This document shows, piece after piece, positions 1,244 through 4,701 of a stretch of 4,701 nucleotides of DNA. The notes below the pieces were generated by a model, which had not been told where the DNA came from, did no database searches, and saw nothing but the letters and a program-made list of their open reading frames with translations. Source of the stretch: a virus (Duplodnaviria; Heunggongvirae; Uroviricota; Caudoviricetes); the IMG/VR virus record IMGVR_UViG_3300023290_000109; one strand, given 5' to 3'. A program made the position numbers and the translations under genes. Numbering within the stretch: position 1 is the stretch's first letter; each line of letters starts with the position of its first letter.

Positions 1244-1514
1244 TGTTATTTTTAGTTTGTTTAAATTAAGCTAAAGAATTATAGAGCACTTATAAATAAG
1301 TGCCATTAATATAAATTAGCTAATAGATTTATTTTTGTTCAGACAAGAGCCATGAATAGGATTAGATAGAAAAGGTTCAGATAAAAATAGAGATCTACTT
1401 CACAAATTAAATGAGAAACTAAAACTTACATCTTGAAATAATCACATTGATTAGATGAATATTTATCGCGCAGTGACATCATTTTTTAATAATAGTTCAA
1501 AAAAAGGGCGTACA
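1244..1514 (+). promoter_or_regulatory. AT-rich upstream regulatory / promoter region and 5' UTR of the porin gene; exact -35/-10 not resolved
   Basis: Strongly AT-rich relative to the flanking genes. TTGAAA at 1433-1438 is a possible -35 but I could not pair it with a convincing -10. AAGGG Shine-Dalgarno at 1504-1508 lies about 6 nt before the porin ATG. Contains the dyad GCACTTAT-AA-ATAAGTGC at 1286-1303. Confidence 0.35.
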
Positions 1515-2597
1515 ATGAAAAAATTAACAGTGGCAATTTCTGCTGTAGCTGCATCAGTACTGATGGCGATGTCTGCTCAGGCAGCTGAAATTTATAATAA
1601 AGACAGTAACAAGCTGGATCTATACGGGAAAGTTAATGCCAAGCACTACTTCTCCTCTAATGATGCAGATGATGGTGATACTACTTATGCCCGTCTTGGC
1701 TTCAAAGGTGAAACCCAAATCAACGATCAACTGACTGGTTTCGGTCAGTGGGAATATGAATTCAAAGGCAACCGTGCTGAATCTCAAGGTTCTTCCAAAG
1801 ACAAAACCCGTCTTGCATTTGCAGGCCTGAAATTTGGTGATTACGGCTCAATCGATTACGGCCGTAACTACGGTGTAGCATACGACATCGGTGCGTGGAC
1901 TGACGTTCTGCCAGAATTCGGTGGTGATACCTGGACCCAAACAGATGTGTTCATGACTGGTCGCACTACTGGTGTTGCAACTTATCGTAACAACGACTTC
2001 TTTGGTCTGGTCGATGGCCTGAACTTTGCTGCTCAGTATCAGGGTAAAAATGACCGCACTGACGTAACTGAAGCCAATGGTGATGGTTTCGGTTTCTCCA
2101 CTACTTATGAGTATGAAGGATTCGGCGTGGGTGCAACCTATGCTAAATCAGATCGCACTGACGGTCAGGTCGCCTATGGTAAGAGCAAATTCAATGCCTC
2201 CGGCAAAAATGCGGAAGTATGGGCTGCAGGCCTGAAATATGATGCGAACAATATCTATCTGGCTACCACATATTCTGAAACTCAGAATATGACCGTTTTT
2301 GGTAATAACCATATTGCAAACAAAGCACAAAACTTTGAAGCAGTAGCACAATATCAGTTTGACTTCGGTCTGCGTCCATCTGTTGCTTACCTTCAGTCAA
2401 AAGGTAAAGACCTTGGTGTTCATGGTGACCGAGACTTAGTCAAGTATGTCGATGTCGGTGCTACTTACTACTTTAATAAAAACATGTCCACTTTTGTTGA
2501 TTACAAAATCAACTTAATTGACGATAGTAAGTTTACCAAAACAGCTGGTATTGATACCGACGACATCGTCGCTGTAGGTCTGGTTTATCAGTTCTAA
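1515..2597 (+). CDS. nmpC: OmpC-family general diffusion porin, prophage-encoded (NmpC / Lc / OmpD-like), intact
   Basis: The track ORF starts at 1455, but the real start is the ATG at 1515 preceded by an SD: [23 protein letters not shown] | AEIYNKD... This is a 23-aa signal peptide with an AQA cleavage site, then a mature N-terminus [16 protein letters not shown] and C-terminal ...VGLVYQF ending in Phe, the hallmark of 16-strand enterobacterial porins. Conserved blocks GFGQWEYEF and [23 protein letters not shown] are present. The location between Q and the lysis genes in opposite orientation is the known position of nmpC in DLP12 and lc in PA-2. Confidence 0.93.
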
Positions 2598-2785: not shown

Positions 2786-3169
2786 TCAATTAGAATTATT
2801 AGCAACGATATCCATATCTAACCGGATATCTAATGCCATTAACATCCCTTCAATTATGCCCTCAGCCTTCTGTAACCTTTTCCCGATATAACCATCCGAG
2901 CAGCAATGCTTACTTGCCAGTGACATGAATGTCATACCACATACATAATAATCTACTAATAAATCGTGTAAATCGCTGTTGTTCTTTTTCAGACGGGCCA
3001 TGCACCCGCAAATGATCATCGCGTCATCGTCACAACATTGCGGGCGAGATTTTACTTTTGAAGGAATTAATCCCTTAAAACCGGCGGCAATGGACGACCA
3101 GGTCACATCTTCATGATTATTAGCCGCCCACGCACCCCAACGCTCAAGAACCATCTGAATATCACGCAT
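2786..3169 (-). CDS. quuD: Late-gene antiterminator Q (quuD-like, phage 21/82-type Q family)
   Basis: [34 protein letters not shown]...[19 protein letters not shown]...[13 protein letters not shown]... Cys-rich zinc-binding-like motifs; it matches DLP12 QuuD as I recall it, in the expected position downstream of rusA/ylcG. The track ORF (132 aa) starts at a TTG at 3184. I prefer the ATG at 3169..3167 (127 aa), which has GGAG 8-9 nt upstream. Confidence 0.88.
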
Positions 3170-3254: not shown

Positions 3255-3395
3255 TCATACTCCTGTTCCTGTCAGGGTTTTGGCGTAATTCTTCAGTATT
3301 CGGTAATCGGTCAAAACAGAACCGAGGAAACGATATAAGCGCAGACGCCCCCAGCGGTGGCGAAGAAGTTCTGCCATATTAAACTCAAACATCAT
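3255..3395 (-). CDS. ylcG: Small protein YlcG-like (46 aa), between rusA and Q
   Basis: Not in the ORF track (too short). Minus-strand translation from ATG 3395..3393: [46 protein letters not shown], stop TGA at 3257..3255. Its start overlaps the rusA stop (ATGA). Matches the DLP12 small ORF ylcG as I recall it, in gene order and sequence. Confidence 0.7.
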
Positions 3396-3754
3396 TCATT
3401 CCCCATTTCGGTGATGGTCAGTTCCAGCCTCCCACCTTTGGTAACAGGCATCTTCACAACGCGGTAATCAACGACCTGAGCATCATCCAGCCAGAAACCT
3501 GCTTTAGTGAGTGCGTCAAAAGCGGCTTTTTGCAGATTATCCAGGTCACGGCGACGGCGATCCGGCATGTGGCACTCAATGCGGATTTTCACAGGCATAG
3601 CCAGGCCGATATCCAGCATTGCGTTTTTAATGATTCGGGCGACGTTATCGCGGTATGCCTGCCCCTCTGCGCTGACGTGCGTGCGCCCGCGATTATGGCG
3701 GTAATAGCGATTATTGCTCGGAGGCCAGGGTAATGTGATGCTGTAGGTATTCAC
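3392..3754 (-). CDS. rusA: RusA Holliday junction resolvase (crossover junction endodeoxyribonuclease)
   Basis: 120-aa [123 protein letters not shown], which I recognise as RusA. The start codon is GTG (3754..3752), overlapping the stop of the upstream ybcO-like frame (GTGA). Confidence 0.93.
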
Positions 3755-3879
3755 GCCTTAATAACCCCCTCTTTCAGCCACATAACCTGTGTTCTCGCCA
3801 TACCTTCCAGCGCGCATTCTTTTGCATATGCAGCATCGACTTGCTTGGCATGCCCTTTACCGGCAATCTTCTGTATGCG
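3751..3879 (-). pseudogene. ybcO: 3' remnant of ybcO (DUF1364-type nin-region gene), truncated at its 5' end; no usable start codon
   Basis: The frame ending with TGA at 3753..3751 translates ...[42 protein letters not shown]. The last ~25 residues match the C-terminus of DLP12 YbcO as I recall it. The frame is closed upstream by two in-frame TAG codons (3880-3882, 3886-3888), and the sequence upstream shows no YbcO-like N-terminal region in any frame. Confidence 0.5.
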
Positions 3880-3960
3880 CTAAACCTAGATAGAATCCAC
3901 TCTGTGCACATTGAAGCCCGCTCTATGCTTTCTTTCAGGTATTGAAGGGATTGAGATGGG

Positions 3961-4308
3961 CTAAGCATTATTGGCCTCCTGCATCAGGAGAAAGACAATC
4001 ATGGCGGCGCGGAGAGGTCTGGTATCAAATATTGGGCTTACGCCTTTTGCATCCACACACCATTCAGTTAACTGGTCTAAGATAGAAATCCTGTATTTCT
4101 CAATAATCGGCCATGAAGCGCTCGGATCATTGCAGTAGTCAGGCAAATGATTTAATGGCTCAAAAGTTGTATCAGCATTTCCGTAATACCATTTGTTGGT
4201 GTTATTCCCTGATGTTTCCGGTTTACTTGCCCAAAGGCCTTTAAAAATTATGTCTCCTACCATTCTGTTAATTTCAAAATCACTTAACTGTGAATAATCC
4301 ATTGTCAT
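3961..4308 (-). CDS. Hypothetical small nin-region phage protein (about 113-115 aa), function unknown
   Basis: The track ORF (3961..4344) begins at a GTG. I prefer ATG 4308..4306 ([21 protein letters not shown]...), which overlaps the ninE stop (ATGA), or the next ATG at 4302..4300, which lies 8 nt after a GAGGAA SD. It is a non-hydrophobic, Trp/Tyr-rich protein. My recollection is that similar proteins are annotated NinX/DUF2591-like in lambdoid nin regions, but I cannot verify the family from sequence alone. Confidence 0.75.
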
Positions 4309-4481
4309 TTCCTCGCACGATATCTTAGCCACCGGATATCCCACAGGTGGGCTGTGTAATTGAAGGTTTTTACGTCAGATTCTTTTGGGATTAGCTTGCG
4401 TTTATTTCTGGAGCGTTTCGTTGGAAGGTATTTGCAGTTTTCGCAGATTATGTCGGTGATGCTTCGTCGCTGTCGTCTCAT
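4305..4481 (-). CDS. ninE: NinE-like protein (58 aa)
   Basis: [58 protein letters not shown] from ATG 4481..4479, preceded by AGGAGG with 5-nt spacing. Matches lambda/DLP12 NinE as I recall it. The track's 88-aa version adds a TTG-initiated N-terminal extension that overlaps the upstream gene and is not credible. Confidence 0.8.
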
Positions 4482-4701
4482 GCAGCCCTCCTGACGCCCT
4501 GCCCGATCGCCATCAATGCCGCTTTGGATACGGTAGTAAACATCCGTCGAGGACTGATGAACGGTCGCCAAATCAGCAGCATGGAGCCTTTGCTGTTTCC
4601 CTTCTTCTCCAGCCCTGTCGATGGTTCGATAAAATTAATCCGTCCATCTGAACCGCCCCGGGAATCCTGGAGACTAAACTTCCTGAGAAAGAGGTAAACA
4701 G
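4478..4701 (-). CDS. 3' end of an upstream nin-region gene (possibly ybcN / Orf-NinB family), partial; runs off the window
   Basis: Open frame across the whole window edge: ...[73 protein letters not shown]. Its stop TGA (4480..4478) overlaps the ninE start (ATGA), the same coupling pattern seen through the rest of the operon. The family name is inferred from DLP12 gene order only. Confidence 0.5.

What the first reader, a model, noticed from the sequence alone, without database searches (positions are those of the whole stretch)
3751..3970. Mosaic junction: ybcO 5' part replaced by an unrelated small gene, with the ybcO 3' end and its overlap with rusA retained
The frame feeding into rusA encodes only the C-terminal ~25 residues of a YbcO-like protein. 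Upstream of that are two in-frame TAG stops and about 110 bp with no YbcO similarity in any frame, then the stop of an unrelated ~115-aa gene. This looks like a recombination breakpoint typical of lambdoid mosaicism, placed so that the rusA translation-initiation region (GTG start, SD and coupling embedded in ybcO) survives. rusA expression in K-12 is known to depend on the upstream context (activating IS insertions upstream), so this arrangement may change rusA expression.
Basis: partly seen in the sequence, partly recalled or inferred. Interest (0 to 1): 0.55.

Follow-up and report, generated by a model that had tools for sequence, protein, structure and literature searches.

The report
Deletion scar upstream of prophage rusA
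The 220 bases are a common, already annotated deletion scar in a lambda-like E. coli prophage (a stump of ninF, 63 bases of foreign DNA and the last 29 codons of the ybcO nuclease gene in front of an intact rusA), ordinary except that one T|A step inside it has been reused as the endpoint of at least nine separate prophage deletions.

Summary
On the minus strand, rusA (3392-3754, GTG start) is preceded by only the last 29 codons of ybcO/DUF1364 (3751-3840). Two in-frame TAGs lie upstream (3886-3888, 3880-3882), and the next gene ends at 3961.

The ~115-aa gene is NinX in its normal nin-region position, not a replacement for ybcO. The "empty" ~120 bp holds the first 21-22 codons of ninF (3904-3968) plus 63 bp of other origin ("X", 3841-3903). 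X is otherwise seen only in a decayed nin remnant of Stx1 phages and O145/O157 strains.

The pieces form a chimeric 64-codon ORF (3774-3968). It keeps ninF's start, coupled to ninX, and stops 19 nt before the rusA GTG.

RefSeq already annotates the ybcO stump as a pseudogene. The arrangement occurs in about 560-584 of 5,426 complete E. coli genomes and in 27 phage records. No promoter, terminator or RNA family lies at the junction. An effect on rusA expression is untested.

One thing was unexpected. The T|A step at 3859|3858 is the shared endpoint of eight leftward deletions and one rightward deletion, on different haplotypes. I could not establish the mechanism.

The parts
3392..3754 (-). rusA, intact 120-codon Holliday-junction resolvase gene with a GTG start
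   Evidence: Pfam RusA PF05866, E 6.9e-23. PGAP annotates it as rusA in CFT073. The identical protein also occurs behind intact ybcO.
3765..3770 (-). rusA ribosome-binding site (AGGGGG, 10 nt before the GTG), lying inside the ybcO remnant
   Evidence: Position corresponds to the ribosome_binding_site annotated at 1121-1126 before rus (1137) in phage 82 record X92588. The sequence is the same in most of the window-type loci where it could be read.
3751..3840 (-). ybcO' pseudogene: last 29 codons plus stop of a DUF1364/YbcO His-Me-finger nuclease gene. Its TGA overlaps the rusA GTG.
   Evidence: Pfam YbcO matches profile positions 62-92 only, 17.7 bits against a cutoff of 29.9. PGAP pseudogene.
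3880..3888 (-). two TAG stops in the ybcO reading frame (3888-3886 and 3882-3880)
3841..3903 (-). segment X, 63 nt, neither ninF nor ybcO. It is contiguous at 88-90% identity in a decayed nin remnant of Stx1 phages AU6Stx1/SH2026Stx1 and O145/O157 strains.
   Evidence: No other homologue in phages, E. coli genomes or the protein database. No polymorphism across 99 loci.
3858..3859 (-). J1: the T|A step (minus strand ...GATTGCCGGT|AAAGGGCATGCC...) reused as a deletion endpoint in other prophage remnants
3904..3968 (-). ninF' remnant: first 21-22 codons of ninF. Its ATG overlaps the ninX stop (ATGCTTAG).
   Evidence: 96.8% identity to the ninX-ninF junction of S163-2 up to window 3906. PHROG 672 (the NinF family) matches residues 1-22 only. 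The Pfam NinF zinc-ribbon part (residues 20-44 of NinF) is absent.
3774..3968 (-). ORF64, a chimeric 64-codon frame made of ninF(1-21), X and out-of-frame ybcO'. It stops at TGA 3776-3774, 19 nt before the rusA GTG.
   Evidence: Some phage records annotate it as 'protein ninF' or 'hypothetical protein'. Open in 99 of 99 loci, but with no sign of purifying selection.
3961..4302 (-). ninX (113 aa), intact
   Evidence: Pfam Phage_P22_NinX PF10765, E 7.7e-17. PHROG 444, E 3e-44. PGAP 'NinX family protein'.
4305..4481 (-). ninE, intact
   Evidence: PGAP annotation in CFT073. NCBIfam NinE family, partial hit.

Best explanation
Window 3751-3970 is a fixed, vertically and horizontally spread deletion scar in the nin region of a lambda-like prophage/phage family.

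Shown anatomy (minus strand): ninE and ninX are intact. ninF is cut after codon 21-22. Then come 63 nt of foreign DNA (X), the last 29 codons of ybcO, and an intact rusA-ylcG-quuD-porin-lysis module.

Inferred history, in at least two steps: (1) an ancestor of ninE-ninX-ninF type acquired foreign DNA inside ninF, a state still partly visible in the Stx1-phage and O145 remnants; (2) an illegitimate deletion joined 63 nt of that DNA to ybcO codon ~68. The deletion removed the rest of the insert, any intervening genes and the catalytic two-thirds of ybcO.

Functional consequences:
- YbcO and NinF are lost (shown).
- rusA keeps its own ribosome-binding site and GTG (shown).
- A fortuitous 64-codon ORF arises. 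It inherits ninF's start, which is coupled to ninX, and ends 3 nt before the rusA ribosome-binding site. Ribosomes coming from ninX would therefore still be delivered next to the rusA start, replacing the native overlapping stop/start coupling (inferred, untested).
- Transcription still depends on read-through from the early rightward operon. No new promoter is created.

Separately, the T|A at 3859|3858 inside X behaves as a recurrent breakpoint for later prophage-decay deletions.
For: - Breakpoints: window 4496-3906 is 96.8% identical to ninE-ninX-ninF5' of S163-2. Window 3840-3392 is 94.7% identical to ybcO3'-rusA of phage 4A7. Window 3934-3834 is 88% identical to the O145/Stx1-phage remnant.
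- An intact order ninX-ninF-KilAC-DUF1364-rusA exists. The intact order ninE-ybcO-rusA exists with the identical RusA protein.
- Family assignments.
- PGAP pseudogene call.
- Prevalence: 560 of 5,426 genomes for the 1.18-kb stretch, 584 for the 126-nt junction, and 27 phage records of 44-50 kb.
- ORF64 geometry and the RBS position.
- ORF64 is open in 99 of 99 loci, but polymorphisms are 13 nonsynonymous to 5 synonymous in its frame and 8 to 3 in the ybcO frame.
- No promoter, terminator or Rfam hit at the junction.
- Recurrent breakpoint: the same right side AAAGGGCATGCC... abuts eight other left partners. These are lambda P codon 33, P codon 47, two sites in a cro-like HTH gene, two sites near ead/xis, a site upstream of exo, and a site in the ral-sieB spacer. 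The left side is also joined once to ylcG.
- Five of the variants share their 600-nt right-hand haplotype with a different window-type haplotype each.
Against: - The order of events is inferred from two diverged relatives, and no intact source of X was found.
- The X-bearing Stx1/O145 remnant is itself decayed, so X could instead be the remnant of an unknown nin gene.
- Translation of ORF64 and any coupling to rusA are unmeasured.
- ORF64 is never interrupted in 99 loci. That is compatible with chance (about 20 polymorphisms) but does not exclude a function.
- For the recurrent breakpoint no mechanism was demonstrated. There is no hairpin (z about 0). No IS sits at the site in 5,426 genomes or in IMG/VR.
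Confidence: 0.85

Rival explanations
1. One-step mosaic. A single illegitimate or short-homology crossover between a P22-like ninX-ninF phage and an 82/DLP12-like ybcO-rusA phage produced the junction, and X is filler created at the crossover.
For: Both parental module types exist. Lambdoid mosaicism is the established background (my knowledge of the field).
Against: X (63 nt) is not filler. It recurs, contiguous with ninF nucleotides 32-63, at 88-90% identity in Stx1 phages and O145/O157 strains, where it continues into different DNA. The ninF'|X junction therefore predates the X|ybcO' junction.
Confidence: 0.1
2. ORF64 is a genuine new small protein gene (a NinF N-terminus with a novel C-terminus) maintained by selection.
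For: It is open and exactly 64 codons in 99 of 99 loci and 13 protein variants. It has a native, coupled start. Some phage annotations call it a gene.
Against: No Pfam or NCBIfam family matches it. It lacks the NinF zinc-ribbon part. Its last 21 residues are out-of-frame ybcO. Polymorphisms are 13 nonsynonymous to 5 synonymous. All homologues in 5.8 billion proteins are the same young chimera or further fusions of it.
Confidence: 0.08
3. The rearrangement was selected because it changes rusA expression.
For: The break spares the rusA RBS, GTG and upstream translation exactly. Every J1 deletion variant also keeps this 105-nt leader.
Against: No promoter-like site is created. The identical RusA and leader occur behind intact ybcO. 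Deletions that remove rusA itself also occur from the same region (L095 and protein P0002). The K-12 activation works through IS-borne transcription.
Confidence: 0.15
4. The recurrent J1 endpoint is the footprint of an insertion sequence that repeatedly landed at GCCGGT^AAAG and was lost together with flanking DNA. This would resemble the IS629 excision with adjacent deletions that the excision enhancer IEE promotes.
For: - Nested deletions with one fixed end are the classic IS signature.
- A 1,310-bp IS3-family element is very active in these prophages: it sits in the window at 4649-4701 and at 12 or more sites in the fetched loci, twice without target duplications.
- Its CFT073 target GCAGGT^AATCG closely resembles J1.
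- An IS21-like element sits 2 nt from J1 in one assembly.
- The literature reports deletions of a few nt to more than 40 kb adjacent to an excising IS, joined by microhomology (PMC9943667; bioRxiv 10.1101/2023.06.07.543989).
Against: None of the 5,426 complete genomes and no IMG/VR contig has that IS end next to J1. No complete genome has the IS21-like insertion. The model needs repeated insertion and complete loss on at least five haplotypes. It does not obviously explain why 6 of 7 partner sites read TAC.
Confidence: 0.3

Closest known systems
ybcO(orf96)-rusA(rus) module of prophage DLP12 and phage 82 (GenBank X92588)
   Same: The last 90 nt of ybcO, the RBS, the overlapping TGA/GTG, and rusA, ylcG and Q are colinear at 93-100% identity.
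   Different: The first ~67 codons of ybcO are absent, including the His-Me-finger catalytic part (fold assignment from PMC5714182). Upstream is ninX-ninF' instead of ninE.
P22-type nin order ninE-ninX-ninF (for example E. coli S163-2)
   Same: ninE, ninX and the ninX-stop/ninF-start overlap are kept at 96.8% identity.
   Different: ninF stops being ninF after codon 21-22. Its zinc-ribbon domain (Pfam PF05810) is gone.
Decayed nin remnant of Stx1 phages AU6Stx1/SH2026Stx1 and O145:H28 RM12581
   Same: It shares ninF nucleotides 32-63 plus the whole of X at 88-90% identity, including an intact J1 sequence.
   Different: It lacks ninX and the ninF start. It continues into unrelated DNA with a 590-aa ORF of no Pfam family on the other strand. 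It has no ybcO'-rusA.
IS629 excision with adjacent deletions promoted by IEE (Kusumoto et al. 2011, as described in PMC9943667)
   Same: One fixed and one variable endpoint, 1-4 nt microhomology, and deletion sizes from tens of nt to more than 15 kb.
   Different: No IS is present at, or documented at, the fixed endpoint.

Membership tests
YbcO / DUF1364 (Pfam PF07102) His-Me-finger nuclease | Whole-domain match (about 92 positions) above the Pfam gathering score | tested here: not met
   Only profile positions 62-92 match, at 17.7 bits against a cutoff of 29.9. Intact relatives score 139-145 bits.
YbcO / DUF1364 (Pfam PF07102) His-Me-finger nuclease | Uninterrupted reading frame of about 96 codons with its own start | tested here: not met
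   Two in-frame TAGs lie upstream of the homologous 29 codons, and there is no plausible start codon. PGAP marks it as a pseudogene.
NinF (Pfam PF05810; PHROG 672) | C-terminal cysteine-rich (zinc-ribbon-like) segment, residues 20-44 of the 58-aa protein | tested here: not met
   ORF64 has no Pfam hit. PHROG 672 aligns to residues 1-22 only.
NinX (Pfam PF10765, formerly DUF2591) | Full-length domain match above the gathering score | tested here: met
   62.1 bits against a cutoff of 22.6, profile positions 1-114. PHROG 444, E 3e-44.
RusA Holliday-junction resolvase (Pfam PF05866) | Full-length domain match and an intact frame | tested here: met
   82 bits, profile positions 1-123 of 124. Identical to RefSeq WP_001099712.1.
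RusA Holliday-junction resolvase (Pfam PF05866) | Junction-cleaving activity and expression from this context | not testable with these tools
   Needs biochemistry or reporter assays.
Lambdoid mosaic module boundary | Abrupt switch of best-matching relatives at a point shared by many genomes | tested here: met
   Switches at 3904/3903 and 3841/3840, shared by 560-584 genomes and 27 phage records.
Lambdoid mosaic module boundary | Boundary lies at a gene border, so that both neighbouring genes stay functional | tested here: not met
   Both breaks lie inside genes and inactivate ninF and ybcO.
IS-anchored (IEE-type) adjacent deletions, considered for J1 | An insertion sequence at the fixed endpoint in at least some relatives | tested here: not met
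   0 of 5,426 complete genomes and 0 IMG/VR contigs for the IS3-family end. 0 genomes for the IS21-like junction.
IS-anchored (IEE-type) adjacent deletions, considered for J1 | Nested deletions sharing one endpoint, joined at short microhomology | tested here: met
   Eight leftward partners share ...|AAAGGGCATGCC. Microhomology is 1-4 nt.

The most novel reading that the evidence does not exclude
The T|A at 3859|3858 is the target of a sequence-directed DNA breakage or excision activity acting on lambda-like prophages. Candidates are a TA-specific transposase-like or nuclease activity, or cleavage of ybcO-less alleles by a YbcO-type His-Me-finger nuclease from a co-resident prophage. On this reading it is not an ordinary microhomology accident. 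The facts that fit:
- At least nine independent deletions, on different haplotypes, use this exact step.
- Two other T|A steps, at P codon 33 and in ylcG, are each reused.
- Six of seven partner sites read TAC (P about 4e-4), so the deleted segments start AC(C) and end (G)GT, flanked by T...A.
Probability: 0.25. Interest if true: 0.6.

Novelty: already known. Interest (0 to 1): 0.27.

Why it matters
The reported feature itself matters little. It is a widespread, annotated pseudogene junction. It shows that YbcO and NinF are dispensable for this phage family, since the arrangement occurs in genomes deposited as complete 44-50 kb phages. It also warns that 'protein ninF' annotations on the 64-codon ORF are misleading.

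The practical value is in annotation: ORF64 should be flagged as a ninF'/ybcO' chimera. It also offers a natural construct for testing how rusA translation depends on upstream ribosome traffic.

The reused T|A breakpoint would matter more if it proves mechanistic. It would give a defined, PCR-sized assay site for studying how cryptic prophages decay in E. coli, and which enzyme (IS transposase with IEE, another nuclease, or end-joining) sets deletion endpoints.

Tried and rejected
- Promoter and terminator scan of 3300-4701: nothing at the junction, and counts were at shuffle level.
- Rfam at E up to 1: only a chance hit elsewhere in the window.
- Hairpin or cruciform at J1: DNA folds of both strands have z-scores of -0.1 and +0.3. 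Only an 8-bp palindrome, GGCATGCC, lies nearby.
- Source of X: distant blastn against phages and E. coli genomes and a protein search with ORF64 found only the same chimera, its derivatives and the Stx1/O145 remnant. The 590-aa ORF next to X in the Stx1 phage has no Pfam family.
- X as a divergent ybcO allele: rejected. tblastn and Pfam similarity start only at residues 11-14 of the fragment.
- IS at J1: chimeric junction queries for the IS3-family end and the IS21-like end found no complete genome. A gapped pattern for the IS3-family end found no IMG/VR contig.
- Selection for an in-frame fusion at J1: rejected. Two of the variants (L024, L076) have no upstream ORF entering the junction.
- Shared descent of the J1 variants: unlikely, because their right-hand haplotypes match different window-type haplotypes.
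- Restriction-and-ligation, tyrosine-recombinase, IS200/IS605 (TTAC) and RusA (cut 5' of CC) readings of the TA/TAC pattern were considered from memory only. None fitted all junctions and none was testable.
- A metagenome scan for non-window-type left flanks found nothing at first. The second scan added two variants.
- A literature search for 'YbcO' returned superconductor papers.

Full report
**What the window is**

The relevant genes lie on the minus strand. The window is the nin-to-lysis part of a lambda-like prophage:
- lysozyme rrrD (214-711) and holin essD (711-926);
- a porin gene on the plus strand (1515-2597);
- antiterminator quuD (2786-3169) and ylcG (3255-3395);
- rusA (3392-3754);
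- the region in question;
- ninX (3961-4302) and ninE (4305-4481);
- the 3' part of a phage adenine methyltransferase gene, cut at 4649 by the end of an IS3-family element.

The 1,180 nt from 3392 to 4571 are 100% identical in CFT073, Nissle 1917, UTI89, ATCC 25922 and many other strains. At least 80% of that stretch is covered in 560 of 5,426 complete E. coli genomes.

**Checking the observation**

The frame that ends on the rusA start reads ...[47 protein letters not shown].
- DNA identity to intact ybcO-rusA modules begins at window 3840 and runs through rusA. This holds for phage 4A7 (94.7%), phage 82 orf96-rus, and a native locus encoding the identical RusA.
- At protein level, YbcO similarity begins at V14 of that fragment in E. 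coli phages and at residues 11-12 in Klebsiella/Enterobacter phages.
- Pfam YbcO matches only profile positions 62-92, at 17.7 bits against a cutoff of 29.9. Intact 96-aa relatives score 139-145 bits.
- The remnant is therefore 29 codons plus stop (3751-3840). Two in-frame TAGs lie at 3888-3886 and 3882-3880.

RefSeq already records the remnant as a 'DUF1364 domain-containing protein, incomplete, missing N-terminus' pseudogene.

**What lies upstream**

The ~115-aa gene is NinX (Pfam PF10765, E 7.7e-17; PHROG 444, E 3e-44). It follows ninE exactly as in intact nin regions. Strain S163-2, for example, has ninE-ninX-ninF-KilAC-DUF1364-rusA. NinX is therefore not a replacement for ybcO.

The 120 nt between the ninX stop and the ybcO homology are not anonymous.
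- Window 4496-3906 is 96.8% identical to ninE-ninX plus the first 63 nt of ninF, including the native ATGCTTAG overlap of the ninF start with the ninX stop.
- PHROG 672, which the intact NinF matches end to end (E 1e-37), aligns to residues 1-22 only.
- The Pfam NinF part, residues 20-44, is missing.
- The remaining 63 nt (X, 3841-3903) match neither parent.
- X recurs only in a decayed nin remnant of Stx1 phages AU6Stx1/SH2026Stx1 and of O145/O157 strains. There it is contiguous with ninF nucleotides 32-63 at 88-90% identity and continues into unrelated DNA.
- The ninF'|X junction is therefore older than the X|ybcO' junction. The scar records at least two events. This last step is inference.

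**The chimeric ORF**

The three pieces happen to form a 64-codon frame (3774-3968): NinF residues 1-21, 22 X-encoded residues, and 21 residues of out-of-frame ybcO.
- It keeps ninF's coupled start.
- It stops at TGA 3776-3774. That is 19 nt before the rusA GTG and 3 nt before the AGGGGG that corresponds to the ribosome-binding site annotated in the phage 82 record.
- Some phage records label it 'protein ninF'.
- It is open in all 99 window-type loci I collected, with 13 protein variants.
- Polymorphisms are 13 nonsynonymous to 5 synonymous in its frame and 8 to 3 in the ybcO frame.
- It has no family match.
- Every relative among 5.8 billion proteins is the same chimera or a further fusion of it.

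I read it as a by-product that is probably translated. Its only plausible role is to deliver ribosomes next to the rusA start in place of the native overlapping stop/start. That role is inferred, not shown.

**rusA expression**

- The rusA leader from 3840 to the GTG matches that of loci with an intact ybcO. The native locus carrying the identical RusA differs from it at a single base.
- No sigma-70-like promoter, terminator or Rfam family is predicted at the junction.
- In K-12, rusA is woken by transcription from IS2 or IS10 inserted upstream (PMC1636454). Nothing comparable is present here.

**How common it is**

The 126-nt junction segment is present in 584 of 5,426 complete genomes. It is also in 27 phage records of 44-50 kb, including ev207, ev017, 2G7b, mEp332, PhiR11_1 and the Lambda_2E9 group. 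It is a successful allele in apparently complete phages. YbcO, a His-Me-finger nuclease fold (PDB 3g27; PMC5714182), and NinF are therefore dispensable for this family.

**The unexpected part: a reused breakpoint**

The protein search turned up fusions that share ...KGMPSKSMLHMQKNARWKVWREHRLCG but have other N-termini. I followed these and scanned IMG/VR, metagenomes and complete genomes for the right-hand sequence.

The minus-strand sequence AAAGGGCATGCC... (from window 3858) abuts eight other left partners, all at the same phosphodiester step:
- lambda P codon 33;
- lambda P codon 47;
- two sites 19 nt apart in a cro-like HTH gene (one of them in strain HKUOPY1);
- two sites 26 nt apart near ead/xis (one of them in strain AST198);
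- a site upstream of exo;
- a site in the ral-sieB spacer.

In the other direction...GCCGGT is joined once to the 3' part of ylcG, which deletes ybcO'-rusA.

Further properties of the site:
- Across the 32 nt to the left and about 27 nt to the right of this point, only one other junction was seen: a 9-nt-homology deletion ending at 3882.
- Five variants carry a 600-nt right-hand haplotype identical to a different window-type haplotype each. This argues for independent events.
- The native partner sequences read TA followed by C in 6 of 7 cases, against a 20% background (P about 4e-4).
- The partner left sides resemble GATTGCCGG slightly more than chance (P about 0.014).
- Two other T|A steps are reused. 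P codon 33 is joined to J1, to cro and to ninX. The ylcG step is joined to J1 and to the end of ORF64.

**Possible mechanisms for the breakpoint**

A fixed end with nested variable ends is the classic signature of IS-associated deletions.
- In favour: a 1,310-bp IS3-family element is very active in these prophages. It sits in the window at 4649-4701 and at 12 or more sites among about 220 loci, twice without target duplications. Its CFT073 target GCAGGT^AATCG resembles J1. The literature describes IS629 excision with adjacent deletions of a few nt to more than 40 kb, joined by microhomology.
- Against: no complete genome or IMG/VR contig has that IS end next to J1. The only IS near it is a single IS21-like insertion 2 nt away, which is absent from complete genomes.
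- There is no hairpin at J1.

I leave the mechanism open. I put the IS-anchored model at about 0.3 and a distinct site-directed break at about 0.25. The remainder is an unexplained microhomology hot spot.

**Verdict**

The finding is real but ordinary. It is an annotated, widespread pseudogene scar of lambdoid mosaic evolution. Its novelty is low. The reused T|A breakpoint is the only element worth following up.

Noticed in passing
window 4649-4701 (+ strand): The terminal 53 nt (TGAACCGCCCCGGGAATCCTGGAGAC...) of a 1,310-bp IS3-family element interrupt the phage adenine-methyltransferase gene at ...ACTGAT|GGACGG. CFT073 carries the same element elsewhere: in the hairpin downstream of ren, with target duplication GGT. 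The window therefore comes from a related but different strain.
   Followed up: partly
loci L001, L002, L031, L034, L074, L078, L079, L105, L122, L165, L202 and the window: The same IS occupies at least 12 different sites in the early and nin regions of related prophages. The copies in L002 (next to a truncated ypjA) and L078 have no target duplication, which indicates IS-adjacent rearrangements.
   Followed up: partly
L096 3590-3724 and protein P0008: An IS21/IS100-like end (TGTCACGAACGGTGCAATAG...) is inserted 2 nt to the right of J1 in one assembly. In another it is inserted about 37 nt further right, inside ybcO'. Neither insertion occurs in complete genomes.
   Followed up: partly
L095 about 1434 and L010 about 3060: Other deletions in the same remnants also join at T|A steps: ral GGCTT|AACC with P GGTT|ACCAAC, and cro GCGGT|AGC with P codon 33 GGT|ACAG. 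P codon 33 is also joined to ninX in L023 and in strain TUM9812.
   Followed up: partly
L217 2341-2610 (E. coli HKUOPY1): Here the J1 deletion fuses a cro-like HTH gene in frame to the YbcO C-terminus (...[41 protein letters not shown]). This restores an overlapping stop/start with rusA. PGAP annotates it as an ordinary HTH protein.
   Followed up: no
L001 5567-6094 versus L047, L062 and L064: The methyltransferase gene between ninB and ninE is a 525-bp cassette bounded by a 12-nt direct repeat, AGGGCGGCATGA. It is absent from some relatives.
   Followed up: no
L005 3456-5228 (Stx1 phage AU6Stx1) and L002 2980-4752: A 590-aa ORF with no Pfam family lies on the opposite strand about 390 nt beyond segment X. 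It may belong to the inserted DNA that X came from.
   Followed up: partly
window 1455-2597: The porin gene sits between Q and the lysis genes, as nmpC does in DLP12. PGAP names it ompC in CFT073. It is intact here, whereas some relatives carry an IS in it (L212).
   Followed up: no
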